A stretch of 64,000 nt of DNA, taken from the IMG/VR virus record IMGVR_UViG_3300021170_000008, positions 42,135-106,134 of that record, one strand, 5' to 3'. The stretch's first letter is position 1. Each line of letters begins with the position of its first letter. Below are positions 7,574 through 53,775 of this stretch, one piece after another. The position numbers were made by a program, and so were the translations under genes. The notes beneath the pieces were generated by a model. It did no database searches and was not told the origin of the DNA. It was given only the letters and a program-made list of their open reading frames with translations. The stretch is from a virus.

Positions 7574-7602
7574 TTGACACGAAGTACGGCAAGATGTATG
7601 CT
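7574..7602 (+). promoter_or_regulatory. sigma70 promoter of the Y RNA-Ro60 operon (TTGACA-N17-TATGCT)
   Basis: Near-consensus; predicted start coincides with the 5' end of Y RNA 1. Confidence 0.8.
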
Positions 7603-7609
7603 GGTTAAG

Positions 7610-7730
7610 TTCGGGTCGGCAGGTTAGCCTTATCTGGTTACCTTGGTTCGACTCCAAGACCCACGCAAGTGGGTTCTAGTAGCTCTGTTAAGGGGTTGCT
7701 AGTCGATGGCTGGCCACCCACTTATCCGGA
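7610..7730 (+). ncRNA. Y RNA 1 (YrlA-like, partial tRNA-like domain)
   Basis: TTCGGGT/ATCCGGA terminal helix with CG/ACTT motif; T-arm CTTGGTTCGACTCCAAG; GCAA-capped stem. Confidence 0.8.
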
Positions 7731-7747
7731 CACCTTTTAAGTTCTCA

Positions 7748-7881
7748 GATTCGGGTCGATAGATTAGGGTTATCTTTTATCAAAAGAGAGGTCGCTGGTT
7801 CGAGTCCAGCCGTGTCTCGCGAGGGGCGCGTAGCTCAGTTGGTAGGGCGCTAAAACGCCCTGGTTAACACTTATCCGAGTC
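7748..7881 (+). ncRNA. yrlA: Y RNA 2 (YrlA-type permuted tRNA mimic)
   Basis: GATTCGGGT/ATCCGAGTC helix; T-arm GCTGGTTCGAGTCCAGC precedes a loop-closed acceptor stem and D-arm TAGCTCAGTTGGTAGGGC; next to Ro60. Confidence 0.9.
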
Positions 7882-7896
7882 GATACTGCGTAGTTT

Positions 7897-7948
7897 GACG
7901 GTGGTTGATGTGACTTGCCCGGAAACGGGCCGTGGAGCCACGGTTACC
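7897..7948 (+). promoter_or_regulatory. Circularly permuted Y-box (putative Ro60-binding element) in the Ro60 5' leader
   Basis: GTGGTT..ACTT-GCCCG-GAAA-CGGGCCG-N11-TTACC: both Y strands in reversed order, joined by a GNRA loop. Confidence 0.6.
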
Positions 7949-8007
7949 TTACTTGGGGCCACGGGTCTGTCGATCCATCTGCGTCCCGAAATAGGAGAAA
8001 AAATCAC

Positions 8008-9633
8008 ATGGCAAAGAACTATCTGGCTGGCGTTTTGAACCCGTTGTCAGTTCCACAGTCCGAGCCGCTTCCCGGCAAAGAGATGGTCGCCAATAACGCA
8101 GGCGGCTACGTGTTCTCTATCTCCACAATGAAGCAGGTAGAGCGCTTCCTGATCTTGGGATCTGAGGGCGGTTCGTATTACGTCACCGAGCGCAAAATGA
8201 CGTTAGGCAACGTCAACGCCTTGAAGGCTGCGCTTGCCGCAGATGGACCTGCCGTTGTCCGGCTGATCGTCGATATCAGCACTAAGGGACGTGCCCCCAA
8301 GAATGACTCCGCGCTGTTTGCTCTGGCATTGGCTGCGAGCCCGAAGTTTGCCGACGCTCGCACCAACTCAATGGCGCTTGCCGCTCTGCCGCAGGTTGCA
8401 CGTACTGGCACGCACTTGTTCCAGTTCGTAAACTTCGTCGAAGGCAACAAGCTCCGTGGTTGGGGCCGTGGTCTGCGTGCGGCTGTGGCTGACTGGTACC
8501 TGTCGAAGACGCCGGACAAGTTGGCGTATCAGGCTGTGAAGTACCAGAACCGCGAGCAGTGGTCGCACCGCGATCTGCTTCGGCTGGTCCACGCGAATAA
8601 TCCGGCGCTCCAGAATGTTTTCCACTGGATCGTGAAGGGTGAGATCGAAGGTCCGGTACCGGCGTTTATTGAGGCATTCGAAAAGGCCAAGGTCTCAACT
8701 GATCCGAAAGAGATCATCAGCCTGATCGAGAGCGCCAACCTGACTCGGGAAATGATCCCGACGCAATTCCTGAACGATGTCGCTGTTTGGGACGCATTAC
8801 TCCAGAAGATGCCGCTGACGGCTATGGTCCGTAACCTGGGTAAGATGACGCAGGTCGGTTTGATCAAGCCGTTGTCGGACGCATCTGCGCTTGTTAGCGG
8901 ACGGCTCCGGAACCAGGAATGGCTGAACCGGGCGCGGGTCCACCCGATTGCTCTGCTGATGGCGGCTTCGACGTACGAGTCTGGCCGTGGTCTGCGTGGC
9001 AGTTTGACTTGGGAGGCCGTGAAGCCGGTTGTCGATGCGCTGGATGAAGCCTTCTATCTGGCCTTTGATAACATCGTTCCAACTGGCAAGCGGTTCTACC
9101 TTGGAATCGATGTCAGCGGATCGATGGGCATGGGAAGAGTGGCCGGTACGGCGCTTACCCCACGCGCAGGCGCGGCAGCGATGGCAATGGTGACGGCTCG
9201 CCGAGAGTCCAACTATTACATGGCAGGGTTCCAGGACAAGATGGTCCCGCTCGATATCGGGGCTCGTGACCGTCTGCCGGATGTTATCCGCAAGACCGAT
9301 AATCTGCCGTTTGGAGCCACGGATTGCGCTCAGCCGATGATCGATGCGTTGAAGAAGAAGCTCGAAGCCGATGTCTTCATCGTGTACACCGACAACGAGA
9401 CCTGGGCCGGTCCAAAGCACCCGACAGCAGCACTTCAGGAGTACCGGGAGAAGATGGGGATCAATTCGAAGTTGATCGTCTGTGGTTTGACGGCTACCGG
9501 CTTCTCTATCGCAGATCCGTCTGATCCTGGGATGCTTGATGTGGTTGGATTCGATACTTCTGTTCCTCAGGTAATCTCGTCGTTTGTCGGTGGAGGCGAG
9601 ATGCCGGAGGAACAGGAAGTCGAAGCAGAGTAA
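8008..9633 (+). CDS. rsr: Ro60 ortholog (TROVE + vWA)
   Basis: NNAGGYVF, RFLILGSEGGSYY, RTGTHLFQF, KYQNREQWSHRDLLRL, DVSGSM MIDAS, YTDNETW; SD AGGAG before ATG 8008. Confidence 0.96.
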   Translation: MAKNYLAGVLNPLSVPQSEPLPGKEMVANNAGGYVFSISTMKQVERFLILGSEGGSYYVTERKMTLGNVNALKAALAADGPAVVRLIVDISTKGRAPKNDSALFALALAASPKFADARTNSMALAALPQVARTGTHLFQFVNFVEGNKLRGWGRGLRAAVADWYLSKTPDKLAYQAVKYQNREQWSHRDLLRLVHANNPALQNVFHWIVKGEIEGPVPAFIEAFEKAKVSTDPKEIISLIESANLTREMIPTQFLNDVAVWDALLQKMPLTAMVRNLGKMTQVGLIKPLSDASALVSGRLRNQEWLNRARVHPIALLMAASTYESGRGLRGSLTWEAVKPVVDALDEAFYLAFDNIVPTGKRFYLGIDVSGSMGMGRVAGTALTPRAGAAAMAMVTARRESNYYMAGFQDKMVPLDIGARDRLPDVIRKTDNLPFGATDCAQPMIDALKKKLEADVFIVYTDNETWAGPKHPTAALQEYREKMGINSKLIVCGLTATGFSIADPSDPGMLDVVGFDTSVPQVISSFVGGGEMPEEQEVEAE

Positions 9634-9637
9634 TTCA

Positions 9638-9706
9638 AATCGGCGAGCCGATAGGGGATCGTTACCTATTGCAAAAAAGCGGTCCTCGGCAACTTGTTCG
9701 CCGGTT
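9638..9706 (+). ncRNA. Y RNA 3 (minimal)
   Basis: AATCGGCGAGC/GTTCGCCGGTT helix; CGAGCCG-N11-TTACC..ACTTGTTCG. Confidence 0.8.
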
Positions 9707-9712
9707 AATTTT

Positions 9713-9856
9713 TCTACGAGCCGGAGTGGATTCGTTATCTTACTCCAAGCCGAAAGGCAAACAATCGCTGTCGTTAAACAGCCATGCCGGGTAACTCTGG
9801 TATGCTTCACGTCAGAAATGATGTGTTGAAATGGATTCACGACACTTGTTCGTAGA
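9713..9856 (+). ncRNA. Y RNA 4 (multi-hairpin effector domain)
   Basis: TCTACGAGC/GTTCGTAGA helix; CGAGCCG-N11-TTATC..ACTTGTTCG; four internal hairpins. Confidence 0.8.
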
Positions 9857-9864
9857 GTAATCTG

Positions 9865-9934
9865 GCTTCGGGCCGAAGTGGGATGGTTATCTTTCTGAAA
9901 AAAAATATGCCATCCCGCACATACTTGTCCGAGC
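9865..9934 (+). ncRNA. Y RNA 5 (minimal, A-rich loop)
   Basis: CGGGCCG-N11-TTATC..ACTTGTCCG; GTGGGATGGT/GCCATCCCGC stem. Confidence 0.8.
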
Positions 9935-9959
9935 AAATCACTCCTGCTTCAGTTTCCGC

Positions 9960-9989
9960 TTGACAATAAGTATCCATCAATGCTAAACT
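9960..9989 (+). promoter_or_regulatory. sigma70 promoter TTGACA-N18-TAAACT (extended -10)
   Basis: Upstream of the AAA ATPase. Confidence 0.65.
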
Positions 9990-10036
9990 TGAAGCTGTCC
10001 ACAATTTCCAAGATAGAAGGTTGGTACCTATACCAC

Positions 10037-11569
10037 ATGGCAATAACCAGAAAAACGAAAGAGACGCTCGTGGACGATCTCGGCCAAGACTTTGAACTCC
10101 AGTTCAAGGAAGTGGGCCTGGACCGTCACGCGAAAGGAAAGATCGCCCTGCCAGAGAATATGACTCTGTCGGAGGGGATTTACTGGCTCAAACAGAAGCA
10201 GGCAGACGAAGAAACCATGGTCGTCGTCAACGAAAAAATTGACGGCTATCCGGTCGATGTCGCCTATTGCCTTCAGTTGGCCGTCCAGGATATGTTCGGC
10301 TTCCGGGAACTGAAGACCATCCCGCCGGAGCACTTCTTCGACAAAGAGAAGCCGCCGACATTCATGACCGTCCCGACCGACCACAAAGGCGGAACGGTTG
10401 AAGTATTCCTGGGTAGGTTCTCGGTGCCGGGCGCAGATGGATATCTTCAGACTGGCCGCATTAACAACGACGCTCTGATCATCCAAGGAAAGCTACGTCA
10501 GAAGAACATCCCGATCCTCCGGGCGCTGATCGCCAAGACCAAGGAAACGCTGGCCAAGCAATCGCTCTACAAGGGCAAGTCGTTCCGCGTGAAGTTCAAT
10601 GAAACGCTGGACGGCAAAATTATCGACAATCCGGAATTCATCGACGTAAGCAAGGCACCAGCCCGGCTGACGTTGAATGCCGAGACGGCGGAACTGGTCC
10701 GGGCGGCTCTGTGGACCCCGATTGAGCGCAGCAAGCAAACCAAGCATTTTGGGATGCCGCTCAAGCGTGGTGTTCTACTTTACGGCCACTACGGCACCGG
10801 CAAATCCCTGACGGCGCATGAGACGGCTCATCTGTGCTCGCAGCACGGCTGGACGTTCATCTATGTTAAGGATGTCACCGACCTGCGCGAGATGTATTCG
10901 TTCGCGGCGCGGTATTCGCCTGCGGTGCTCTTCGCTGAAGACATCGATCTGGTGATCAAGCATGAAGGCGACGACGGATCTGACTCCGTTAATGAACTGA
11001 ACAACGTGCTCGACGGCGTGGACAGCAAAGACAAAGACATCATTGTGGTCTTGACCACAAATCATGTGGAAAAGATCCCGGTGTCTCTGCTCCGTCCTGG
11101 CCGGTTCGACGCCATCGTCGAGTACTTCCCGCCTGACCGGGCGACGGCTGCGGCGTTGGTTGAGCAGTACGCAGGCGATGAAATCGACCGGGACGACTGG
11201 GATTGCGAAGAAGTCGGAAATGTCCTGGCCGGTAACATCCCGGCGACGATCCATGAAGTCGTCAAGCGAGCCAAGCTGTTTTCGATTGGCCGCTACCCGG
11301 CAGACTACCGGGGCAAGCTCCTGCTATCGACATCGGACATCATCAATTCGATGAAGAGTATGAGCAAGCACCTGGATCTTCTGAACACGAAGCCGTCCGA
11401 GAACCCGTCGTTCACCGAAGTCCTGGGTGGAGCAGTCGGCGAGAGTATCGCAAAGAATCTCGCCGTAGCTCTAGACGTTACAAAGCGTGGCGATAACTGG
11501 GGTGAAAAGCGCTCCAAAATAGCGGAGGAACGTATCCTGGCTCCGCTCGAAAACGGCAGCAGCAAGTAG
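10037..11569 (+). CDS. AAA+ ATPase (classic AAA clade) with N-terminal extension
   Basis: RGVLLYGHYGTGKS, FAEDID, LTTNH, LLRPGRFD. Confidence 0.92.
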   Translation: MAITRKTKETLVDDLGQDFELQFKEVGLDRHAKGKIALPENMTLSEGIYWLKQKQADEETMVVVNEKIDGYPVDVAYCLQLAVQDMFGFRELKTIPPEHFFDKEKPPTFMTVPTDHKGGTVEVFLGRFSVPGADGYLQTGRINNDALIIQGKLRQKNIPILRALIAKTKETLAKQSLYKGKSFRVKFNETLDGKIIDNPEFIDVSKAPARLTLNAETAELVRAALWTPIERSKQTKHFGMPLKRGVLLYGHYGTGKSLTAHETAHLCSQHGWTFIYVKDVTDLREMYSFAARYSPAVLFAEDIDLVIKHEGDDGSDSVNELNNVLDGVDSKDKDIIVVLTTNHVEKIPVSLLRPGRFDAIVEYFPPDRATAAALVEQYAGDEIDRDDWDCEEVGNVLAGNIPATIHEVVKRAKLFSIGRYPADYRGKLLLSTSDIINSMKSMSKHLDLLNTKPSENPSFTEVLGGAVGESIAKNLAVALDVTKRGDNWGEKRSKIAEERILAPLENGSSK

Positions 11570-46522: not shown

Positions 46523-46595
46523 TGCCGGTGGAGGGACTTGCACCCACACTTGGACGGCTTTTAAGGCCGTTTTCTCTGCGTTGGAATACACCGGC
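46523..46595 (-). tRNA. tRNA-Leu(TAA), short variable loop, no CCA
   Basis: ACGGC-CTTAAAA-GCCGT; T-loop TGCAAGT. Confidence 0.8.
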
Positions 46596-46601
46596 GAGAT
46601 G

Positions 46602-46693
46602 TGGTGGGCGACGAGGGAGTTGAACCCCCAGCGGGTCCGAAGGACCTCCAGTTCTACAGACTGGCGCGGGCTACCGATACCCGCAAGACGCCC
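46602..46693 (-). tRNA. tRNA-Tyr(GTA)
   Basis: CCAGT-CTGTAGA-ACTGG; long V arm; CCA. Confidence 0.85.
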
Positions 46694-46694
46694 A

Positions 46695-46781
46695 TGGCGG
46701 AAGCGGCGTGACTCGAACACGCATGACCTATTCGGTCCCGATATTAGCAGTATCGTGGGATACCATTTACCCGACGCTTCC
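46695..46781 (-). tRNA. tRNA-Ser(GCT)
   Basis: CGATA-CTGCTAA-TATCG; long V arm; G73, CCA. Confidence 0.88.
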
Positions 46782-47249
46782 GTTTGAAATGGCAGGGCTG
46801 GCAAGGGTCGAACTCGCAATCGCTGTTTTGGAAGCAGCTACCGTCACCGTCCGGTCAGCCCTATAAATTCTACGCTTTCTGTTTGCCTCCGCACGGAAAA
46901 CCATACAGATATCACACTTGCATTTCCGCTTGAATGCAAAGGACCAGCCACCATGTGTTGCCTTCTGATTATCCCCATTTTCTCTTGTCTTTTCCAGATG
47001 GCACGGCTTGCATAATAACTGGCACTTCAAAAGCTCAGCCTCAAATAAATCCTTTCTCTTCTGCCACATCCTTCCGATGTCGCCAACCTTAGTGGCCGGA
47101 TCGATATGGTCAAAATCAAGATTCTTGGTAGCCCCACATCGGACGCATTTGCCTCCTAATTTAGCTAGCGCGTACTGCCTGCGGCGCTCCCTCCACTTCG
47201 GTAGATAATCCCGAAGATATTCCTGCATTTTCTTGCGAGTGTAGGCCAT
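46767..47249 (-). CDS. HNH endonuclease reading through tRNA-Trp
   Basis: LGGKCVRCG..LDFDHIDP..KCQLLCKPCH; own leaderless promoter. Confidence 0.88.
   Translation of the reverse strand: MAYTRKKMQEYLRDYLPKWRERRRQYALAKLGGKCVRCGATKNLDFDHIDPATKVGDIGRMWQKRKDLFEAELLKCQLLCKPCHLEKTRENGDNQKATHGGWSFAFKRKCKCDICMVFRAEANRKRRIYRADRTVTVAASKTAIASSTLASPAISNGSVG
46790..46862 (-). tRNA. tRNA-Trp(CCA)
   Basis: Loop TTCCAAA; G73, CCA. Confidence 0.8.
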
Positions 47250-47291
47250 GCGGAAGTTTATCACGCAGGCACTCACCGCGCAAATTAAAAG

Positions 47292-47385
47292 TGGAGGAGG
47301 ACCAGGGTCTCCAACCCTGACACCCGTTTAGGGTCTGCTGGGTTCGGGCCAGTGGCCGTTAGGGCGAATCTCGGCTTAGTCCTCC
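47292..47385 (-). tRNA. Atypical tRNA-Ser(CGA)
   Basis: Loop CCCGAAC (C33), long V arm, T-loop TTGGAGA, CCA. Confidence 0.6.
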
Positions 47386-47386
47386 A

Positions 47387-47464
47387 TGGTACCCGCCCTC
47401 GGATTCGAACCGAGACTGTTCAGTTTCTAAAACTGAGGACTCCTGCCAGTTGGTCTAGGCGGGC
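47387..47464 (-). tRNA. tRNA-Leu(TAG), short variable loop
   Basis: TCAGT-TTTAGAA-ACTGA; CCA. Confidence 0.85.
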
Positions 47465-47483
47465 AAAATGAATGTCAAAGATC

Positions 47484-47557
47484 TGGAGAGCTAGCGCAGA
47501 GTCGAACTGCGTACGTCTCTTTTGCAGAGAGATCCCTGGCCGGTCGGGGTCTAGCTC
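47484..47557 (-). tRNA. tRNA-Cys(GCA)
   Basis: TCTCT-CTGCAAA-AGAGA; U73, CCA. Confidence 0.8.
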
Positions 47558-47575
47558 AAACTGAGTTTTTGGGAT

Positions 47576-47653
47576 TTAATAACTTGAGAGTTGCAGTCGG
47601 GATGACCACAAACAGGAACGCGACAGGAGGGATAAAATGTGTGCGCGGTTCAT
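47576..47653 (-). CDS. Putative leaderless leader peptide MNRAHILSLLSRSCLWSSRLQLSSY
   Basis: ATG 6 nt after the -10; Leu/Ser/Cys/Trp/Tyr-rich; precedes tRNAs for those residues. Confidence 0.55.
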   Translation of the reverse strand: MNRAHILSLLSRSCLWSSRLQLSSY

Positions 47654-47659
47654 GTTTAG

Positions 47660-47688
47660 ATATTACTTCAATACTTGCGGCGCGTCAA
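47660..47688 (-). promoter_or_regulatory. sigma70 promoter TTGACG-N17-TAATAT
   Basis: Upstream of the Cys-Leu-Ser-Trp-Ser-Tyr-Leu tRNA sub-operon. Confidence 0.7.
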
Positions 47689-47935
47689 GCATTTTCTTTC
47701 TCGTATAGTACTCCCTAGCCGAGAAGTCCATCCCTAAGGCACGCTTAATAACTTCCTCTAGGGGGCGTAACCCTTGATAGTGGTCTCGCACCGGGAACAA
47801 TATCTCCTTCCCGTCTACGCACCACATCCACTCGGCCTGCGGCAAATCATTCTTACGGATAACGACACGCGGCTTCATTCTACTAGCCCGGCTCGTGGCC
47901 CGTCCCTTCGCAGCGTGGACAATCATACCTTCCAT
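47663..47935 (-). CDS. Hypothetical protein
   Basis: ORF; true start probably ATG 47878. Confidence 0.45.
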   Translation of the reverse strand: MEGMIVHAAKGRATSRASRMKPRVVIRKNDLPQAEWMWCVDGKEILFPVRDHYQGLRPLEEVIKRALGMDFSAREYYTRKKMLDAPQVLK

Positions 47936-48122
47936 GCACGCACGCTAGGAACCCACTACCGGCGCAGCGCTGGCAGGCGATTGTCTGGATTGTGTTTTCG
48001 ATAGGCGGATCTGGGTACTTCGGGTCGCGATGGATCTTGGGAACGATCACCCGCGTCGTCTTGACCCGGCCTACCCGCTCACGGGCTATCCATTTGATTT
48101 CCTTGGGGACGTTGCGCTTCAT
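47883..48122 (-). CDS. Small protein with CxxCxGxG zinc finger
   Basis: CQRCAGSG..CPRCEGTG. Confidence 0.55.
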   Translation of the reverse strand: MKRNVPKEIKWIARERVGRVKTTRVIVPKIHRDPKYPDPPIENTIQTIACQRCAGSGFLACVHGRYDCPRCEGTGHEPG

Positions 48123-48281
48123 TCTGAATCTCTATCGATCACCACGACCGTAACTCCCTCTTCTGACATCAGAATGAAATTACGCGCCTTCGTATCCGGA
48201 TCAAAGAACCGGTCTCGCTCCTGGGGGAATACGTGATGCAGTAGAGTTGCCCAGGCAGCATACGGCAGCCTTACGTGAATT

Positions 48282-48710
48282 TTAGCCACGCTCTTTCTCC
48301 AGCATCGCCTTGATGAACGGCTCAATACCGCCGTCGAGTACCGGTTCCAGCGGCAATTCAACGCCGGTGCGATGGTCAAGCACCGTGCCACGCTTGAAGT
48401 TGTACGTCCTGATCTTTTCGCCCTTCTCGGCGGTCTGGCGCGTTCTTTCTACCGGCACTCCAGCCATTCTTCTGGCGCATTCTATCCGGTGCCAGTCCTG
48501 GAACTCCTTTGATGCTACCAGACGCTTGAATGCAGCTTCCCGGTTCTTGGTATTGCTGCGGTGTTCACGGCCTTCGCCACGGGCTCCGGATGCTTTGTGG
48601 ATCAGACGTACGCCGCTGTTGGACGTGTCTTTACCTCCGCCTCCAGCCCCTCCTACCGAGAAGGTCTGAATCTAGAAGTCTTTCTTGGTGACACTAAAAA
48701 GCAGTTCCAT
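48282..48710 (-). pseudogene. RF-1-domain (PrfH/ArfB-like) gene with in-frame TAG at codon 13 and GGQ replaced by GGG
   Basis: MELLFSVTKKDF*IQTFSVGGAGGGGKDTSNSGVRLIH..RSNTKNREAAFKRL..IRTYNF..VLDHR. Confidence 0.75.
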
Positions 48711-48919
48711 TACGCCCTCGCCGCCATTCTCTCCGCTCTCCTGGCTGCTGCCGCAGACGACCGGATCTGCCCTACGTGAAACCCGTTACAGAACGGACAC
48801 CGATACGCCCTGAACTTGGCCTTCTTGAGCTTATGTAAGCTCTTAGCCCGTATCTGGGCGTCCTCCAGGGTGTGGTGGATCTTCTTCCTGCCGCATTGTC
48901 TTTGCTGAAGGTCTGTCAT
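48710..48919 (-). CDS. Small zinc-finger phage protein
   Basis: CGRKK..AYRCPFCNGFHVG. Confidence 0.7.
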   Translation of the reverse strand: MTDLQQRQCGRKKIHHTLEDAQIRAKSLHKLKKAKFRAYRCPFCNGFHVGQIRSSAAAARRAERMAARA

Positions 48920-48924
48920 AAATT

Positions 48925-49000
48925 TGGCTGGGAGTCTTGGGATCGAACCAAGGACCTTCTCTTTCAGAGAGAGACGCTCTGCCGACTGAGCTAACCCCCA
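48925..49000 (-). tRNA. tRNA-Gln(CTG)
   Basis: TCTCT-CTCTGAA-AGAGA; U1-A72, G73, CCA. Confidence 0.85.
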
Positions 49001-49227
49001 GTAAGACTATCTTTTTCTGTATCGAACGGCTCCATCGGTTCCGTGATCGACGTGTCTTCGCACTCTTCGTAGTTGCCTACCCGGCGCAGGTACTCCTTGC
49101 CTCCGTCCACGGAGATATTTCCGCACTTACAGGACCGGAAGTCATGTACCGACTTCGACTCGATCTCTTCCCCGCACTTCAAGCACTTGACGCTGTTGCG
49201 GATGATTTTCTCTCGCGGTATTTTCAT
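48991..49227 (-). CDS. Small zinc-binding phage protein
   Basis: KCLKCGEEIES..HDFRSCKCG..VDGG.EYLRR. Confidence 0.75.
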   Translation of the reverse strand: MKIPREKIIRNSVKCLKCGEEIESKSVHDFRSCKCGNISVDGGKEYLRRVGNYEECEDTSITEPMEPFDTEKDSLTGG

Positions 49228-49616
49228 TTGTATTTACCTACCGCCAGCCGCAATTTAGCGTTTTCCGTACGTAGGGCCAGCAGTTCGTGCCAAGTAAACT
49301 CAGCGTTCATCTTATCAGAGATGAAAGATCCTTCCAGATACGCAATCCACGCCTTGTCCGATAGCTGCTTGTTTAACTTGCGAAGTCTTTTGGATTCCTT
49401 CAGCCAGTCTGATGCCCTCTTAAAAACTCTGTCTATATAACGCTGATCAACACTCTCCTGACGGGTATGGCAAATCCCCTGAGCCGCGTGCTTCCCTTTG
49501 AATTTACAGTCAGCCTGAACACAGAAGCTCTCCCAGATCTCGCGCTGGAACACGCGGGTCTCGGTCTTGTGCTTCCCGCCGTGCTTGATGATCTTGACTG
49601 GTTTTTCTTGTTTCAT
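49224..49616 (-). CDS. Hypothetical protein
   Basis: 130-aa ORF, coupled. Confidence 0.55.
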   Translation of the reverse strand: MKQEKPVKIIKHGGKHKTETRVFQREIWESFCVQADCKFKGKHAAQGICHTRQESVDQRYIDRVFKRASDWLKESKRLRKLNKQLSDKAWIAYLEGSFISDKMNAEFTWHELLALRTENAKLRLAVGKYK

Positions 49617-49621
49617 AAATT

Positions 49622-49650
49622 TGGTAGCGCCGGAGCGACTCGAACGCTCA
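49622..49650 (-). pseudogene. Orphan tRNA 3' fragment (T-arm, acceptor strand, CCA)
   Basis: GAGCGTTCGAGTCGCTC-CGGCGCT-ACCA with no 5' half. Confidence 0.65.
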
Positions 49651-49656
49651 TAAAAT

Positions 49657-49733
49657 TGGTGGCTGGAATCGGTTTCGAACCGCCTTTCAGCGTTTTCAGC
49701 GCTGCTCTGTCACCAGACCAGATCCATCCAGCC
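49657..49733 (-). tRNA. tRNA-Phe(GAA)
   Basis: CAGCG-CTGAAAA-CGCTG; CCA; imperfect T stem. Confidence 0.75.
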
Positions 49734-50256
49734 CTTGCTTAACCAAACGAGAATATATAGCATCGACCGCCGTCAGCATATCCGCGTTAGTTATCACGTT
49801 ACCGTGCTCTATCCTATGACAGTTAGCGCACAACAATCGACACTTCTTTATCTCAGCCGCAATAGCACTCCACGATCTACTTGCCGAAGTCCCAACAGTA
49901 AAATCCTTGCCTCCGACATGATGGAAATCAAGAGCCGCTAGCGGGACCACGGAACTACACCTAGTACAGCTTCCTCCCATTATCTTAACGGCTGCCATTT
50001 TTGTAGCAGTGCGCCTGATCTTGGATATACATGCTCCGCAACGCCTTGACCTCCCACGACAGTCTTTCCCGCAGAAGCGGCATGACCCACTAATTTCTCT
50101 GCTCTTTCTGTCCTTCTTAGGGATGTGGATTCTTTTAGTATTATGAGATAGATACGGAGAGCAATCCAAGCAATACTTACGATCCCTGAACCATTTTCTC
50201 TTTCCATCAATCACCATAGTTGACGGGAAGATAGATTGACACTTACGGCACACCAT
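49696..50256 (-). CDS. HNH endonuclease ending in the tRNA-Phe anticodon loop
   Basis: MGGSCTRC..ALDFHH..KCRLLCANCHRIEH. Confidence 0.88.
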   Translation of the reverse strand: MVCRKCQSIFPSTMVIDGKRKWFRDRKYCLDCSPYLSHNTKRIHIPKKDRKSREISGSCRFCGKDCRGRSRRCGACISKIRRTATKMAAVKIMGGSCTRCSSVVPLAALDFHHVGGKDFTVGTSASRSWSAIAAEIKKCRLLCANCHRIEHGNVITNADMLTAVDAIYSRLVKQGLDGSGLVTEQR

Positions 50257-50272
50257 GCACTATTGTATCACA

Positions 50273-50719
50273 TCATGCCTTGACCCCGTTGGCTACAGCG
50301 CTATTGTCAGTAACAATTCTTTCGAAGATCTTCAGCCCATCCGTCTGAGCATTGAACTTCATGTTCTTGCTGCCTGGGCTCGTTCCTGACCAGATCAAAA
50401 TTAACCCGCCGTCGCCTTTCGCCCACTCCGACATCTGCATATTCCGAATGATTCCGGCTTGTTTCCCGAACTTTTTCCAGTCGGCCTTCATGACCTCAGG
50501 CTTCACTTTAAGTTCGTACCGAAGCCACGCTTCAGCTACCTCGTCTACGCCTTTGGCCCCGCCGACGCAGAACTTGCTGTTCACCCAGCCATCAAGCTCG
50601 TCCAGGCCCTGTCTGATGTACTCGTAGATCAACTGGCGCTCGCCGATCACGTCGGACATGCGCTTGCCTTCTTTCTCGGCCCCGATCCAGCGCGACCCGG
50701 CGATAACTATACGCCGCAT
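50273..50719 (-). CDS. SLOG-family (DUF2493/YspA-like) protein
   Basis: IVIAGSR, GGAKGVD, ADWKKFGKQAGIIRN.QM, SPGSKNM. Confidence 0.8.
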   Translation of the reverse strand: MRRIVIAGSRWIGAEKEGKRMSDVIGERQLIYEYIRQGLDELDGWVNSKFCVGGAKGVDEVAEAWLRYELKVKPEVMKADWKKFGKQAGIIRNMQMSEWAKGDGGLILIWSGTSPGSKNMKFNAQTDGLKIFERIVTDNSAVANGVKA

Positions 50720-51270
50720 AGCCTGCGCCAAAGCAAAACAGCAAGACCGGTCAGTACAAGAGCCGCAGACCCAGGCTCCGGAACATCCGTAACATAGTAC
50801 GGAAATAATCTGATCCAACCTCCGCCGTCGCATTCCGAACAAGACCCGGAAACAGATCCAGCTATCGTAAACTGCTCTCCAGAATAGAACTCATACTCGG
50901 GCATACCGTGCGGTCCAATGCCGACATTGGGTAGACTGACACTGAATCCAGACCGTCCCCATATTGCCGTGGCATCTTGCGCTGCGTATAGCTCAATCAT
51001 CCCAGGCAATCCAGAAGTCGTCACGATGTCCATCTCAATTGAGAACGACGCTGACCCCGAAGCCTCCGTACATTGATCGAAAGCATTACACCAAGACGAC
51101 AGTAAGACTGTAGCTACCGGCAGGTTCGAAAACGGATCAACTTCAGCGTAAGCGCTGGCGGTAGCGCCTGATCCTGACGCCTGCTGAGACGTGTTAAACA
51201 CAGCAGGGCCAAGTGAAACCGTATCGGCCAACAGCGGCAACGAAAGCGCCAGTAGCAGCATGGCCTTCAT
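50707..51270 (-). CDS. PEP-CTERM surface protein
   Basis: Signal peptide; VPEPGSAALVLTGLAVLLWRR. Confidence 0.88.
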   Translation of the reverse strand: MKAMLLLALSLPLLADTVSLGPAVFNTSQQASGSGATASAYAEVDPFSNLPVATVLLSSWCNAFDQCTEASGSASFSIEMDIVTTSGLPGMIELYAAQDATAIWGRSGFSVSLPNVGIGPHGMPEYEFYSGEQFTIAGSVSGSCSECDGGGWIRLFPYYVTDVPEPGSAALVLTGLAVLLWRRLCGV

Positions 51271-51276
51271 ATCTTT

Positions 51277-51305
51277 ATTATCGCTCTACGCAAAGTATCT
51301 GTCAA
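51277..51305 (-). promoter_or_regulatory. Promoter TTGACA-N17-GATAAT (leaderless PEP-CTERM gene)
   Basis: ATG 6 nt after the -10. Confidence 0.65.
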
Positions 51306-51380
51306 GACTAATCAGGCCGTCCGCCGGGCTTCCCGCTAGGTTAGGGCTGGGTAAGCAACAACGTGACGGCCTGAACTTGT

Positions 51381-51456
51381 TGGCGTCCCTGCGGAGAATT
51401 GAACTCCGATTGTCGGCTTGAGAAACCGATTTCCTTGCCGTTTAGAAGACAGGGAC
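51381..51456 (-). tRNA. tRNA-Glu(CTC)
   Basis: Loop TTCTCAA; CCA. Confidence 0.85.
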
Positions 51457-51457
51457 G

Positions 51458-51532
51458 TGGCGGGCGCGAGCAGAATCGAACTGCCGTCGAGGCATAGACA
51501 GTGCCCCATCTTGGCCACTAGAAGACGCGCCC
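51458..51532 (-). tRNA. tRNA-Asp(GTC)
   Basis: Loop CTGTCTA; CCA. Confidence 0.85.
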
Positions 51533-51538
51533 TAAACT

Positions 51539-51613
51539 TGGTGCTCGGCTCCGGACTTGAACCGGAATTGTCAGATTCGTAATCTGAAGACCTATCCATT
51601 GATCGAACCGAGC
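51539..51613 (-). tRNA. tRNA-Arg(ACG)
   Basis: Loop TTACGAA; CCA. Confidence 0.85.
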
Positions 51614-51614
51614 A

Positions 51615-51688
51615 TGGTACCGCCAGCGAGAATCGGACTCGCGTTGCAGGAGTGAAAATCCTGATTCCTACCACTAGAAGATGGCGGC
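51615..51688 (-). tRNA. tRNA-Glu(TTC)
   Basis: Loop TTTTCAC; CCA. Confidence 0.82.
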
Positions 51689-51698
51689 ATAAATCTAA

Positions 51699-51772
51699 TG
51701 AGCCCGGAGAGAATCGAACTCTCGATGTACGGATTAAAAATCCGTTGCTCGGCCAACGTGAGCGACGGGCTC
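51699..51772 (-). tRNA. tRNA-Lys(TTT), no CCA
   Basis: Loop TTTTTAA. Confidence 0.85.
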
Positions 51773-51779
51773 GCAAAAC

Positions 51780-51857
51780 TGGTGGACCGCCTCGGACTCG
51801 AACCGAGAATCGCCGGAGTAAGAATCCGGAGCTTTAATCCAATTTAGCTAACGGTCC
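51780..51857 (-). tRNA. tRNA-Lys(CTT)
   Basis: Loop TTCTTAC; CCA. Confidence 0.85.
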
Positions 51858-51863
51858 AAACTT

Positions 51864-51942
51864 TGGTGCCTCTTCTTGGATTCGAACCAAGGGCCTACCG
51901 ATTATGAGCCGGTTGCTCTGGGCCAGACTGAGCTAAAGAGGC
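51864..51942 (-). tRNA. tRNA-Met or Ile2 (CAT)
   Basis: Loop CTCATAA; CCA. Confidence 0.85.
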
Positions 51943-51946
51943 AAAA

Positions 51947-52021
51947 TGGTTGGGAGTGACAGACTCGAACTGTCGTAGTAAGATTCAAAATCTTACGTCC
52001 TAGCCGCTGAACGAACTCCCA
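51947..52021 (-). tRNA. tRNA-Gln(TTG)
   Basis: Loop TTTTGAA; U1-A72; CCA. Confidence 0.85.
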
Positions 52022-52028
52022 TCAAAAT

Positions 52029-52105
52029 TGGTGCGCCTGGGAGGAATCGAACCCCCGTAGTCTCCGGTAGAAACGGAGCGCATAAATCCGCTCTGCCACA
52101 GGCGC
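52029..52105 (-). tRNA. tRNA-Arg(TCT)
   Basis: Loop TTTCTAC; CCA. Confidence 0.85.
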
Positions 52106-52109
52106 TTAA

Positions 52110-52203
52110 TGGCCACCGACTGGGCGACTCACACCCTCGACTCTCGCCGGGGTAACTTGCGGCATACGATCCGCATGGCGACGATCCCAGCATCTAGTGG
52201 CCA
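52110..52203 (-). ncRNA. Unassigned structured RNA in the tRNA array
   Basis: Nested helices TGGCCAC/GTGGCCA, CTGGG/CCCAG, TCGCC/GGCGA, TGCGG/CCGCA; fills one tRNA slot. Confidence 0.55.
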
Positions 52204-52206
52204 ACT

Positions 52207-52280
52207 TGGTCCCTTCGGAACGAGTCGCACGTTCGTCGGTCGGTTATCAGCCGACTGCATTGCTCTTATGCTACGAAGGG
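52207..52280 (-). tRNA. tRNA-Ile(GAT)
   Basis: Loop CTGATAA; T-loop TGCGACT; CCA. Confidence 0.82.
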
Positions 52281-52285
52281 GAAAT

Positions 52286-52361
52286 TGGTACCGGTATCCA
52301 GACTCGAACTGGAATTCCTGCCTTCGGAGGACAGTGCCCTGATCCCTTGGACGATACCGGC
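52286..52361 (-). tRNA. tRNA-Arg(CCG)
   Basis: Loop CTCCGAA; CCA. Confidence 0.85.
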
Positions 52362-52367
52362 GAAACT

Positions 52368-52441
52368 TTTAGGCGTCGAGATTTGAACTCGAATTTGCCC
52401 CTTAGGAGGGGGCCGTCGTATCCGGGTTGGACCACGCCCAA
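52368..52441 (-). tRNA. tRNA-Arg(CCT), no CCA
   Basis: GCCCC-CTCCTAA-GGGGC. Confidence 0.7.
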
Positions 52442-52443
52442 CT

Positions 52444-52519
52444 TGGTACCGGGGTAGAGGATCGAACTCTACTGCAACTGTGTGTAGGACAGTGGCCCTC
52501 TCCAGAAGGCGACCCCGGC
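52444..52519 (-). tRNA. tRNA-Val(TAC)
   Basis: Loop CCTACAC (C33); CCA. Confidence 0.8.
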
Positions 52520-52526
52520 ATTGAAA

Positions 52527-52616
52527 TGGCTCACGGGGCAGGATTCGAACCTGCGGCGGGGACTGAGTCCCTCCTGATTAACAGTCAGGCTCCTGCTACC
52601 ACTCGGATACCCGTGA
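52527..52616 (-). tRNA. tRNA-Asn(GTT) with long variable arm
   Basis: Loop CTGTTAA; V arm GGGAC-TCA-GTCCC; G73, CCA. Confidence 0.8.
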
Positions 52617-52623
52617 ATAAAAT

Positions 52624-52698
52624 TGGTCGGGGTAGGTGTTCTCGACTCACCGGCCTCAGCTTCCCAAAAGCCGCGCTCTGCCTCTGAGCTATACCCCG
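52624..52698 (-). tRNA. tRNA-Pro(TGG), atypical T arm
   Basis: Loop TTTGGGA; C1-G72; CCA. Confidence 0.78.
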
Positions 52699-52702
52699 AA
52701 AT

Positions 52703-52777
52703 TGGTTGCGGAGGGGAGAATCGAACTCCCGATCCCGTGCGCCCGAGGCACGTACCATACCACTTGGCTACTCCGCA
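52703..52777 (-). tRNA. tRNA-Pro(CGG)
   Basis: Loop CTCGGGC; CCA. Confidence 0.82.
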
Positions 52778-52786
52778 AAAACTTGA

Positions 52787-52847
52787 TGCCGGGGTGCCGG
52801 ATTTTCACCGACCGCCCATGGTTGAAACCGCGTGCTCCGACCCCGGC
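52787..52847 (-). ncRNA. D-armless tRNA-like small RNA
   Basis: 8-bp GCCGGGGT/ACCCCGGC stem; T arm GTCGG-TGAAAAT-CCGGC. Confidence 0.55.
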
Positions 52848-52898
52848 GCATTGGACTGCATTCTATTGTCAAACAACTCAGCCCAACCAACTAATGAG

Positions 52899-53009
52899 CT
52901 ATGTGTACTTCTTAACCCAGCGGCACACGCCGCAGATGATGCAGCGTAACTTCTCTACGTTCTCCGTCACCTTGCCGCATCGCTTGCAGAAGATCGCTTC
53001 TTGATCCAT
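52899..53009 (-). CDS. Small zinc-ribbon peptide (36 aa)
   Basis: CKRCGK..CIICG. Confidence 0.5.
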   Translation of the reverse strand: MDQEAIFCKRCGKVTENVEKLRCIICGVCRWVKKYT

Positions 53010-53015
53010 AACTTT

Positions 53016-53091
53016 TGGGAGGCTATGTCAGGATCGAACTGACGTAAACGGTTCCACAGACCGTCCCCTGAACCACTCGGGTAATAGCCCC
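53016..53091 (-). tRNA. tRNA-His(GTG)
   Basis: G-1:C73; loop CTGTGGA; CCA. Confidence 0.88.
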
Positions 53092-53102
53092 GCATTCAAA
53101 CT

Positions 53103-53182
53103 TGGTGGAGCACTGGAGTAACGATCTCCACTGAAATTCCGCATTGCAAGTGCGGCGACCACCCCATGCAGTCCCGTGCCCC
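53103..53182 (-). tRNA. tRNA-Ala(TGC)
   Basis: G3:U70; loop CTTGCAA; T-loop ATCGTTA; CCA. Confidence 0.82.
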
Positions 53183-53187
53183 AAAAC

Positions 53188-53265
53188 TGGAGCGAGTGGA
53201 GCGATTTGAACGCTCGGCCTGTTCGTTGGCAACGAACCGCTCTAGCCAGACTGAGCTACACCCGC
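53188..53265 (-). tRNA. tRNA-Gly(GCC)
   Basis: Loop TTGCCAA; U73, CCA. Confidence 0.88.
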
Positions 53266-53658
53266 CGAATACATTCCCGGTATACGCTTAGGATTTCTCT
53301 CCCGCTGCGCCTTCAATCTCTGCCGTTGATGTTCTCTACACAATTCGCACCGGCAGCCACGCCTATACGATGCGTGCGTTCCGTGTACAGCATCCCTACG
53401 AAATTCCTCCGCCGTCTTTTTCTCATGGCACTTCCTGCACAGGACCTGACACTTCTTTAATTCCTCAGTCCTAGTACTTTCCTTCCATGACCAGATCCTG
53501 TGCGACACTTTCGTCTTTGGGTCGATGTGGTCAACTTCAAGCCTTTCCCATGACCCACACCGCCTGCACGGCCCGTTTGCGGAAAGCCATTCATTCCGAC
53601 GTTTCCGAATCCATTTGAGCCTATATTCTTTTTGCTCCACCGGATCAATGTAAGGCAT
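53242..53658 (-). CDS. HNH endonuclease ending in the tRNA-Gly D arm
   Basis: CRRCG..LEVDHIDP..KCQVLC..CH; HGT..Y..GCRCELC; promoter TTGACT-N17-TAACAT. Confidence 0.88.
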   Translation of the reverse strand: MPYIDPVEQKEYRLKWIRKRRNEWLSANGPCRRCGSWERLEVDHIDPKTKVSHRIWSWKESTRTEELKKCQVLCRKCHEKKTAEEFRRDAVHGTHASYRRGCRCELCREHQRQRLKAQRERNPKRIPGMYSAGVAQSG

Positions 53659-53701
53659 GGAGCGATGTTACAGGACAAACCCGACAGAGTCAATCTCAAA
53701 A

Positions 53702-53775
53702 TGGAGCGGATGGCGAGAATCGGACTCGCGTCTTGAGTTTGGAAGACTCAGGCCCTACCACTGGACGACATCCGC
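53702..53775 (-). tRNA. tRNA-Gly(TCC)
   Basis: Loop CTTCCAA; U73, CCA. Confidence 0.85.

What the first reader, a model, noticed from the sequence alone, without database searches (positions are those of the whole stretch)
7897..8007. Circularly permuted Y-box in the Ro60 mRNA leader: candidate autoregulatory switch
Seen: a sixth copy of the motif, CGGGCCG-N11-TTACC (7926-7948). Its partner strand ACTT-GCCCG (7913-7921) lies upstream rather than downstream and is joined by a GAAA tetraloop; GTGGTT (7901) pairs with AGCCAC (7936). The Ro-binding module is therefore an internal hairpin about 45 nt before the Ro60 SD. Competing pairings exist (CCGTGG 7930 / CCACGG 7959; GCGTAG 7888 / CTGCGT 7979, near the SD). 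Inference: free Ro60 binds its own leader, matching protein level to Y RNA level, as in ribosomal-protein mimicry. I know of no description of this.
Basis: partly seen in the sequence, partly recalled or inferred. Interest (0 to 1): 0.88.

Follow-up and report, generated by a model that had tools for sequence, protein, structure and literature searches.

The report
Rearranged Y-RNA stem in Ro60 leader
The untranslated leader of this phage's Ro60 gene contains a small hairpin that copies, with its strands in swapped order, the stem through which Ro60 is thought to hold its partner Y RNAs; similar hairpins sit in front of many other Ro60 genes, so Ro60 may limit its own synthesis, but this is untested and this copy lies unusually far from the ribosome-binding site.

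Summary

- **Context.** The Ro60 (TROVE) gene at 8008-9633 sits in one apparent transcription unit with five canonical Y RNAs: Y1 and Y2 upstream, Y4 to Y6 downstream.
- **The hairpin.** ACUU-GCCCG-GAAA-CGGGC-CG (7913-7932) puts the Y-RNA terminal stem in swapped strand order.
- **Model support.** A covariance model trained only on such hairpins from other Ro60 loci ranks it first in the 64-kb window (18.1 bits, E 0.0016). A mini-Y model finds Y4 and Y6 but not the leader.
- **Family.** In 218 distinct Ro60 leaders, 32 carry a swapped-order hairpin where about 4 are expected. The stem covaries, and the hairpin usually ends 17-23 nt before the AUG, against the ribosome-binding site.
- **What differs here.** This hairpin ends 77 nt before the AUG. 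It keeps complementary "upper stem" flanks and UUACC, so it is a whole circularly permuted mini-Y. A weaker hairpin (7953-7989) holds the usual place.
- **Cautions.** The same hairpin type also forms at ordinary junctions between tandem Y RNAs, so it may be a relic. Ro60 binding and autoregulation are only inferred.

This scan noted the same kind of leader mimic in at least 8 other genomes. My literature searches found no description.

The parts
7574..7602 (+). sigma-70-like promoter (TTGACA-17-TATGCT). Its predicted start coincides with the 5' end of Y1. No promoter-like or terminator-like site lies between it and the Ro60 start; one terminator-like site lies inside the ORF (8984-9000).
7609..7731 (+). 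Y1: canonical Y RNA (CGGGU-CG ... UUAUC ... CACUU-AUCCG) with a T-arm-like hairpin
7748..7881 (+). Y2: YrlA-like Y RNA with T- and D-arm mimics. Its cognate 3' strand is CACUUAUCCG at 7868-7877.
   Evidence: (RF02553, 33.5 bits, below the gathering score of 69)
7897..7906 (+). upstream arm, equivalent to the 3' strand of a Y 'upper stem'; complementary to 7936-7945
   Evidence: predicted pair probability is low
7907..7916 (+). GAUGUGACUU: equivalent to the xACUU side of the Y-RNA internal loop
7917..7930 (+). core hairpin GCCCG-GAAA-CGGGC: the Y terminal stem with strands swapped and closed by a GNRA loop
7931..7948 (+). CGUGG, then the upper-stem 5' strand AGCCACGG, then UUACC. This is the 5' half of a mini-Y at the canonical N11 spacing.
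7953..7989 (+). HP2: the SD-proximal hairpin, UUGGGGC...GUCCCGA. With ACUU (7951-7954) before it and CGAAA-UAGGAG after it, it occupies the place of the family's leader hairpin, but the polarity of its stem pairs is flipped.
   Evidence: (18.7 bits, E 0.006, best hit in the window)
7993..7997 (+). Shine-Dalgarno AGGAG. In the leader-only fold its AGG pairs with CCU 7947-7949.
8008..9633 (+). Ro60 / TROVE + vWA gene (541 aa)
   Evidence: homologues
9640..9704 (+). Y4: canonical mini-Y
   Evidence: (33.2 bits)
9713..9856 (+). Y5: Y scaffold with a multi-hairpin payload
9864..9937 (+). Y6: canonical mini-Y
   Evidence: (54.3 bits)

Best explanation
**What it is (shown).**
- Positions 7897-7948 are a Y-RNA-derived module in circularly permuted order: upper-stem 3' strand, xACUU, terminal-stem 3' strand, GAAA, terminal-stem 5' strand, CG, upper-stem 5' strand, UUACC.
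- It lies in the leader of the Ro60 mRNA, which appears to be co-transcribed with Y1 and Y2 from a promoter at about 7574-7602.

**How it arose (inferred).** It most likely came from a tandem duplication of the mini-Y that sits next to the SD in the closest relatives. The outer halves were then lost.

**Function (inferred).**
- It is a cis-acting site for free Ro60, which couples Ro60 synthesis to the pool of Y RNAs that compete for the protein.
- In most family members the hairpin's CGAA strand runs straight into the SD, so bound Ro60 would block the 30S subunit.
- Here the good mimic ends 62 nt before the SD. Any effect would have to be indirect, for example by favouring the fold in which HP2 and the CCU/AGG pairing cover the SD, by acting together with the weak SD-proximal hairpin, or by changing mRNA stability.
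For: - **Local anatomy.** It is confirmed. The core hairpin is stable in every folding context.
- **Family model.** Model R2, trained on 20 leader hairpins from other loci, ranks 7911-7936 first in the 64-kb window.
- **Not a normal Y.** The mini-Y model R3 finds Y6 (54.3 bits) and Y4 (33.2 bits) but gives no hit in the leader.
- **Permutation.** Rotated into normal order, the sequence folds as a mini-Y (-21.3 kcal/mol). It also scores above 2000 of 2000 shuffles against a mini-Y sequence profile.
- **Recurrence.** 32 of 218 distinct Ro60 leaders carry a swapped-order hairpin within 100 nt of the AUG, against about 4 expected. Most end 17-23 nt from the AUG and are followed by CGAA and the SD.
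- **Covariation.** 94% of cells are paired, 6 of 7 pairs show double changes, and 0 of 500 shuffles reach this.
- **Specificity.** The Ro60 leader is the top genome-wide hit in 5 of 5 bacterial genomes.
- **Complete permuted Ys elsewhere.** Thirteen other loci show a whole permuted Y: hairpin A, AACCUU, hairpin B, CGAA, SD.
- **Ro60 site motifs.** Chen et al. 2014 (PMC4201824) give GNCGAAN0-1G and YUAY as the conserved Y-RNA motifs and GNCGAAN0-1G as the likely Rsr recognition motif. They state that Ro60 contacts mainly the 5' strand.
Against: - No binding or expression data exist for this element or for any family member.
- HP1 ends 77 nt from the AUG, outside the family's 17-23 nt.
- HP1 has CGUG where the family and the published motif have CGAA.
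- The SD-proximal hairpin HP2 matches the family model only weakly (18.7 bits, while genome-scale noise reaches 19-22 bits), and its stem pairs are flipped.
- R2 scores ordinary tight junctions between tandem Y RNAs equally well.
- No close relative of this phage was available, so conservation of this particular leader could not be tested. The best hits were 56% amino-acid identity at loci and 62% for a protein whose contig could not be fetched.
Confidence: 0.42

Rival explanations
1. It is an evolutionary relic. The hairpin is simply the junction between two tandem mini-Y copies that have since lost their outer halves (a pseudo-Y). It has no role beyond being tolerated in the leader.
For: - Tight junction hairpins (xCUU-GCCCG, 3-6 nt loop, CGGGC-CGAAG...GGUUAUC) are common inside Y arrays and score like HP1 with R2.
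- HP1's 5'-type strand is followed by a normal Y 5' half including UUACC at N11.
- The closest relative by protein (L020) has an intact mini-Y ending 29 nt before its AUG, in the corresponding position.
- The 3' half after 7949 is degenerate.
- CGAA is lost.
Against: - After two deletions the junction still keeps 5 perfect Watson-Crick pairs, a GNRA loop, ACUU, and flanks that still pair with each other.
- This phage's Y RNAs have different upper stems, so flank complementarity across a junction is not automatic.
- Leader hairpins of this type are under selection elsewhere.
Confidence: 0.3
2. It is a separate small Ro60-bound RNA, like M. smegmatis YrlB. It would be cut out of the Y1-Y2-Ro60 precursor and would act in trans as a non-canonical hairpin-type Y RNA, not as an mRNA operator.
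For: - Chen et al. 2014 found that YrlB lies between YrlA and rsr, is bound by Rsr, and is processed from the same precursor.
- The element follows the YrlA-like Y2 directly, and the long hairpin 7890-7953 is a compact unit.
Against: - There is no T-arm or other payload.
- It matches no Rfam family and does not match the mini-Y model.
- Only 127 nt separate Y2 from the AUG, and no promoter or terminator lies there.
Confidence: 0.16
3. It is generic leader structure. The hairpins would protect the 5' end of the processed Ro60 mRNA or guide cleavage of the precursor, without any Ro60 recognition.
For: - A stable GNRA-capped hairpin downstream of processed RNAs is a common mRNA stabiliser (general knowledge).
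- The leader's fold energy is ordinary.
Against: - This does not explain why the unpaired flanks xCUU and CG(AA), which are the Y-RNA internal-loop motifs, are kept across the family while the stem covaries.
- It also does not explain why the hairpin is found only at Ro60 genes in whole genomes.
Confidence: 0.1

Closest known systems
Ro60-binding terminal stem of bacterial and phage Y RNAs (YrlA/YrlB type; Rfam RF02553; Chen et al. 2014, PMC4201824; Thermus phage phiLo Yrl1/Yrl2, PMC12135203)
   Same: - It has the same G/C-rich 5-bp helix (CGGGC/GCCCG).
- It has the same flanking unpaired motifs: xACUU on one strand and CG-N2-G on the other.
- UUACC lies at the same spacing.
- It is encoded next to Ro60 on the same strand.
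   Different: - The strand order is swapped, and the end that is normally open is closed by GAAA.
- It carries no effector payload.
- It has CGUG instead of CGAA.
- It lies inside an mRNA leader.
Swapped-order Y-stem hairpin at the SD of other Ro60 genes. It is defined here and was noted earlier in this scan; my literature searches did not find it.
   Same: - It shares the layout xCUU, stem, short loop, stem, CG, and the same polarity of the stem pairs.
- It is the best R2 hit in the window.
   Different: - In the family the hairpin ends 17-23 nt before the AUG, and CGAA runs into the SD.
- Here it ends 77 nt before the AUG, and a Y 5' half follows in place of the SD.
- A second, weak hairpin holds the SD-proximal place.
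Autogenous translational operators that mimic the protein's main RNA ligand (ribosomal-protein leaders that mimic rRNA; E. coli thrS leader that mimics tRNA-Thr). Basis: general knowledge.
   Same: A copy of the ligand's binding determinant sits in the leader of the gene that encodes the binding protein. The free ligand would compete and relieve repression.
   Different: Binding and repression are unproven here, and the best mimic does not overlap the ribosome-binding site.
M. smegmatis YrlB (Chen et al. 2014)
   Same: It lies between a YrlA-type RNA and the Ro60 gene in one transcription unit.
   Different: YrlB is a processed RNA, bound by Rsr in trans, with a possible T-arm. No T-arm is seen here, and processing is unknown.

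Membership tests
Canonical bacterial/phage Y RNA | A long stem formed by the 5' and 3' termini carries the Ro60 site | tested here: not met
   The strands are in swapped order and joined by GAAA. The mini-Y model R3 hits Y4 and Y6 but not the leader.
Canonical bacterial/phage Y RNA | GNCGAAN0-1G motif on the 5' strand (Chen 2014) | tested here: inconclusive
   HP1 reads GCCGUGG: GNCG is kept and AA is replaced by UG. This phage's own Y RNAs also vary at those two positions (GC, AU, AU, GA, AA).
Canonical bacterial/phage Y RNA | YUAY at the entry to the loop | tested here: met
   UUACC at 7944-7948, at the same N11 spacing as in the five Y RNAs.
Canonical bacterial/phage Y RNA | Encoded beside a Ro60 gene, on the same strand | tested here: met
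YrlA subfamily | tRNA-like T and D arms | tested here: not met
   There is no Rfam or tRNA hit in 7881-8007. The YrlA hit is Y2, at 7787-7851.
Canonical bacterial/phage Y RNA | Bound by Ro60 | not testable with these tools
   This needs EMSA or immunoprecipitation.
Swapped-order Y-stem hairpin of Ro60 leaders | Layout xCUU, 5-7 bp stem (G-C, C-G, Y-R, C-G ...), short loop, stem, CG | tested here: met
   R2 gives 18.1 bits, E 0.0016, the top hit in 64 kb. Every stem pair has the family's polarity.
Swapped-order Y-stem hairpin of Ro60 leaders | The hairpin ends 17-23 nt before the AUG, with CGAA running into the SD | tested here: not met
   HP1 ends 77 nt before the AUG and reads CGUG. The SD-proximal place is taken by HP2, which matches R1 only weakly (18.7 bits) and has flipped stem pairs.
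Autogenous operator by ligand mimicry | The protein binds its own leader and represses translation, and the ligand competes | not testable with these tools
   Only the mimicry at sequence and structure level was shown.
YrlB-like processed RNA | A discrete processed RNA between YrlA and rsr, bound by Rsr | not testable with these tools
   The position fits. No transcript data are available.

The most novel reading that the evidence does not exclude
Ro60 proteins of many phages and bacteria control their own synthesis through a circularly permuted Y-RNA stem built into the mRNA leader, so that Ro60 output tracks the Y-RNA pool. This phage would carry a two-part version: a complete permuted mini-Y (7897-7948) acts as a Ro60-sensing domain and switches the downstream hairpin and SD pairing.
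Probability: 0.3. Interest if true: 0.8.

Novelty: new variant of a known kind. Interest (0 to 1): 0.6.

Why it matters
How Ro60 levels are matched to Y RNA levels is unknown in any organism. A cis-acting copy of the Y-RNA stem in Ro60 leaders would be the first autogenous control proposed for this protein family. It would also be a new example of regulation by ligand mimicry.

It would be easy to test, because the minimal hairpin is 20-30 nt long. This window adds a variant in which a whole mini-Y has been circularly permuted. That shows how such operators could arise from junctions in tandem Y-RNA arrays.

If the element is only a relic, it still documents how Y-RNA arrays turn over by duplication and deletion.

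Tried and rejected
1. **A third canonical mini-Y at 7926-7988.** Rejected. R3 gives no hit, there is no complementary upper stem, and no ACUU precedes the 3' strand.
2. **HP1's 3'-type strand as an alternative 3' end of Y2.** This would give a 170-nt form. It is unlikely, because the cognate strand at 7868-7881 gives 9 bp and adjoins Y2's upper stem, against 5-7 bp for the alternative.
3. **Close relatives for covariation of this leader.**
   - None was found in phage records, IMG/VR or metagenomes; all were 56% amino-acid identity or less.
   - An exact 20-mer scan of viral contigs found nothing.
4. **Rfam.** Nothing matched in the leader.
5. **An unbiased tally of Y-stem flank composition.** It was too noisy because of register ambiguity, so I did not use it.
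6. **A sequence-only profile of mini-Ys.** It barely separates real mini-Ys (Y4 scores only 7.3 bits), so I used it only against shuffles.
7. **Terminator or attenuator.** Rejected. No U-tract follows, and the scan finds no terminator-like site in the leader.
8. **An N-terminal extension of Ro60 from the in-frame TTG at 7915.** Rejected. Homologues align from residues 1-17 of the protein that starts at the ATG at 8008, and that ATG has a good SD.
9. **Literature.** I found no paper on Ro60 leader autoregulation. Two reviews were not held.

Full report
**Setting**

The window is part of a 106-kb IMG/VR virus record. The ORF at 8008-9633 encodes a 541-aa Ro60 protein with TROVE and Ro60-vWA domains (E 1e-49 and 1e-66). 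Homologues align from residues 1-17, which confirms the ATG at 8008. That ATG is preceded by AGGAG at 7993-7997.

- exact matches at 7612, 7752, 7926 and 9869;
- matches with one mismatch at 9644 and 9717.

In total there are 7 matches in the window against 1.3 expected, and 0 of 100 shuffles reach 7.

Five of the six copies are normal Y RNAs, each with a 3' strand xACUU-RYYCG downstream:
- Y1 at 7609-7731.
- Y2 at 7748-7881. It has a partial YrlA match covering the T and D arms (33.5 bits, below the gathering score).
- Y4, Y5 and Y6 after the stop codon.

A model of 22 mini-Y RNAs from other loci (R3) finds Y6 at 54.3 bits and Y4 at 33.2 bits.

A good sigma-70-like promoter at 7574-7602 would start transcription at the first base of Y1. 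The next promoter-like site lies after Y6. The scan finds neither a promoter-like nor a terminator-like site between Y2 and the Ro60 start; one terminator-like site lies inside the ORF at 8984-9000. The Y RNAs and the Ro60 gene therefore look like one transcription unit, but this is inferred.

**The observation**

- ACUU 7913-7916
- GCCCG 7917-7921
- GAAA 7922-7925
- CGGGC 7926-7930
- CG 7931-7932
- UUACC 7944-7948
- GUGGUU 7901-7906, opposite AGCCAC 7936-7941
- CCGUGG 7930 / CCACGG 7959
- GCGUAG 7888 / CUGCGU 7979

The GAAA-capped core hairpin appears in every fold, with pair probabilities of 0.96-1.0 for four of its five pairs.

The outer stem extends to 9 pairs with one mismatch (7897-7906 with 7936-7945). 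It is present in the minimum-energy fold of 7881-7992. In the ensemble, however, its probability is only 0.13 for the leader alone and 0.01 for the transcript from the promoter. It competes with a local CCGUG-GAGC-CACGG hairpin (0.84) or with CCGUGG/CCACGG (0.95). The leader's fold energy is ordinary (z = -0.9).

**Is it a third normal Y RNA?**

No.
- The first 28 nt from 7922 align with the 5' halves of mini-Y RNAs, including all invariant positions.
- The 3' half lacks both the complementary upper strand and ACUU, and R3 gives no hit there.
- The missing 3' half (upper strand, xACUU, GCCCG) lies upstream instead, at 7897-7921.
- When I join 7924-7953 to 7895-7923 in a script, the sequence folds as a textbook mini-Y with terminal stem, internal loop, upper stem and apical loop (-21.3 kcal/mol).
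- The joined sequence also beats 2000 of 2000 shuffles against a mini-Y sequence profile. That profile is weak, though: the genuine Y4 scores no better.

So 'circularly permuted' is an accurate description.

**Comparison with other Ro60 loci**

No close relative was available.

I therefore collected 258 Ro60 loci from viral contigs, metagenomes and bacterial genomes and classified 218 distinct leaders by script:
- 90 have a normal Y RNA ending 90 nt or less before the AUG (13 of these also carry the swapped-order hairpin). This group includes the window's closest relative, L020, where the Y RNA ends 29 nt before the AUG.
- 32 have a swapped-order hairpin (xCUU, stem, loop, stem, CG) that does not begin a normal Y RNA. 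About 4 are expected from the background rate.

In most of the 32, the hairpin ends 17-23 nt before the AUG and is followed by CGAA and the SD.

In an alignment of 21 such leaders:
- the stem is 94% paired;
- 6 of 7 pairs show changes on both sides, and 0 of 500 shuffles reach this;
- sliding the partner columns drops pairing to 29-46%;
- the unpaired CUU and CCGAA flanks are nearly invariant.

In five whole bacterial genomes of 4-7 Mb, the best hit of the leader model R1 is the Ro60 leader every time (25-39 bits; other hits reach 22 bits at most).

In 13 other loci a second, covarying hairpin sits directly upstream. The order is upper hairpin, AACCUU, terminal hairpin, CGAA, SD. That is a complete Y RNA permuted at a different point.

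A cultured phage, Sinorhizobium phage Phosso, has a weak match to the R1 model (17.1 bits) at the same place.

CUU and CGAA are the motifs that face each other in the internal loop of a Y RNA. Chen et al. 2014 give GNCGAAN0-1G as the likely Rsr recognition motif and note that Ro60 contacts mainly that strand. The phiLo study used CGAA to find two Ro60-binding RNAs upstream of a phage Ro60 gene.

**Where the window fits**
- R2 was trained on the hairpin and its flanks from other loci. Its best hit in the whole window is 7911-7936 (18.1 bits, E 0.0016; the next hit scores 11.6). All five stem pairs there have the family's polarity.
- R1 also models the SD and the AUG. It does not pick that hairpin. 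Its best hit in the window is 7941-8010 (18.7 bits, E 0.006; the next hit scores 12.3).
- The R1 hit aligns ACUU-G (7951-7955), a 30-nt insert and C-CGAAAUAGGAG with the family. That region forms a stable hairpin, HP2, at 7953-7989 (probability 0.98 in the leader alone). However, its pairs are flipped relative to the family, and 18.7 bits is within genome-scale noise.

The window therefore splits the family's features. The good sequence mimic ends 77 nt before the AUG and is followed by a Y 5' half. The usual place holds only a weak look-alike.

**A necessary caution**

R2 also hits many sites inside Y-RNA arrays; only 8 of its 130 hits are on the opposite strand to Ro60. Many of these are tight junctions between two complete tandem Y RNAs. 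They have 3-6-nt loops, and the 5'-type strand continues as CGAAG...GGUUAUC.

Junction hairpins are thus inherent to arrays with similar stems. In some loci (L179, L243, L192) the flanks across the junction also pair.

The window's hairpin has the junction form, but neither neighbouring Y RNA is complete:
- Y2 has its own, better 3' strand at 7868-7881.
- The downstream half is degenerate.

The simplest history is a tandem duplication of the SD-proximal mini-Y followed by two truncations. Whether the product is used or merely tolerated cannot be decided from sequence.

**Mechanism**

I favour a cis-acting Ro60 site that gives feedback on Ro60 synthesis (about 0.4).

Shown:
- the mimicry;
- its recurrence, covariation and specificity to Ro60 leaders at the family level;
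- the window's membership at the hairpin level.

Inferred:
- Ro60 binding;
- repression;
- competition by Y RNAs.

For this window, direct occlusion of the SD is unlikely because 62 nt lie between the hairpin and the SD. In the leader-only fold, the AGG of the SD pairs with CCU of UUACCU on top of HP2 (unpaired probability 0.02-0.07). In the long-transcript fold HP2 is replaced and the SD is more open. A conformational effect is therefore conceivable, but these predictions depend on context and I do not rely on them.

Rivals:
- a relic junction (0.3);
- a YrlB-like processed RNA that binds Ro60 in trans (0.16; Chen 2014 describe such an RNA between YrlA and rsr);
- a generic stabilising or processing structure (0.1).

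**Novelty**

My searches found no paper that describes a Ro60-binding mimic in Ro60 leaders or Ro60 autoregulation. Two reviews were not held.

Earlier notes of this scan report the same leader mimic in at least eight other genomes. I re-derived the family here independently, so it is not new to the scan.

What this window adds is a displaced, whole-mini-Y permutation. This points to array junctions as the evolutionary source of such leader hairpins.

Noticed in passing
window 46523-53775 (- strand): An array of 20 tRNA genes lies in this phage record (Rfam tRNA, 45-66 bits).
   Followed up: no
window 47094-47153 (+): There is a weak mini-Y-like match (R3 11.9 bits, E 2: GGCCGGA...CAUUUGCC) beside the tRNA array. 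R2 also has sub-threshold hits at 47829-47849 (-) and 52391-52415 (+). These are probably noise, but they could be diverged Y-like elements far from the Ro60 gene.
   Followed up: no
window 7947-7949 with 7993-7995: In the leader-only fold, CCU of the UUACCU motif pairs with AGG of the Shine-Dalgarno on top of HP2. The unpaired probability of AGG is 0.02-0.07. The pairing disappears when the transcript is folded from the promoter.
   Followed up: partly
window 7915-8007 (+): An in-frame TTG at 7915 opens the Ro60 reading frame 93 nt upstream with no stop codon. Homologues and the SD argue that it is not used.
   Followed up: partly
L116, L119, L121, L127, L128, L131, L138, L141, L156, L142, L025, L112, L175 (about 75 nt before each Ro60 AUG): These loci carry a complete permuted Y in the leader: a covarying upper hairpin, AACCUU, a covarying terminal hairpin, CGAA, the SD and then the AUG.
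   Followed up: yes
L261 648-694 (Sinorhizobium phage Phosso, PV764938): This cultured jumbo phage has AAUU-GCCC-CAAAA-GGGC-CGGAUGAGAAGGAG just before its Ro60 AUG (R1, 17.1 bits). It is a convenient system for experiments.
   Followed up: partly
L179 1376-1425; L243 1298-1345; L192 1260-1305: In these loci the sequences flanking tight Y-junction hairpins also pair with each other (7-9 bp), as in the window. Arrays could therefore fold in two registers: normal Y RNAs, or permuted Ys across junctions.
   Followed up: partly
L186 3399-3987 and other arrays: Ro60 loci of bacterial MAGs carry long arrays of Y RNAs with 3-4-nt spacers. Only 8 of the 130 R2 hits are on the opposite strand to Ro60.
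   Followed up: partly
window 9960-9989 and 9980-11569: A second TTGACA-type promoter lies directly after Y6. It overlaps the listed ATG of the next ORF (an AAA/STAND-like ATPase), so that start codon is probably wrong.
   Followed up: no
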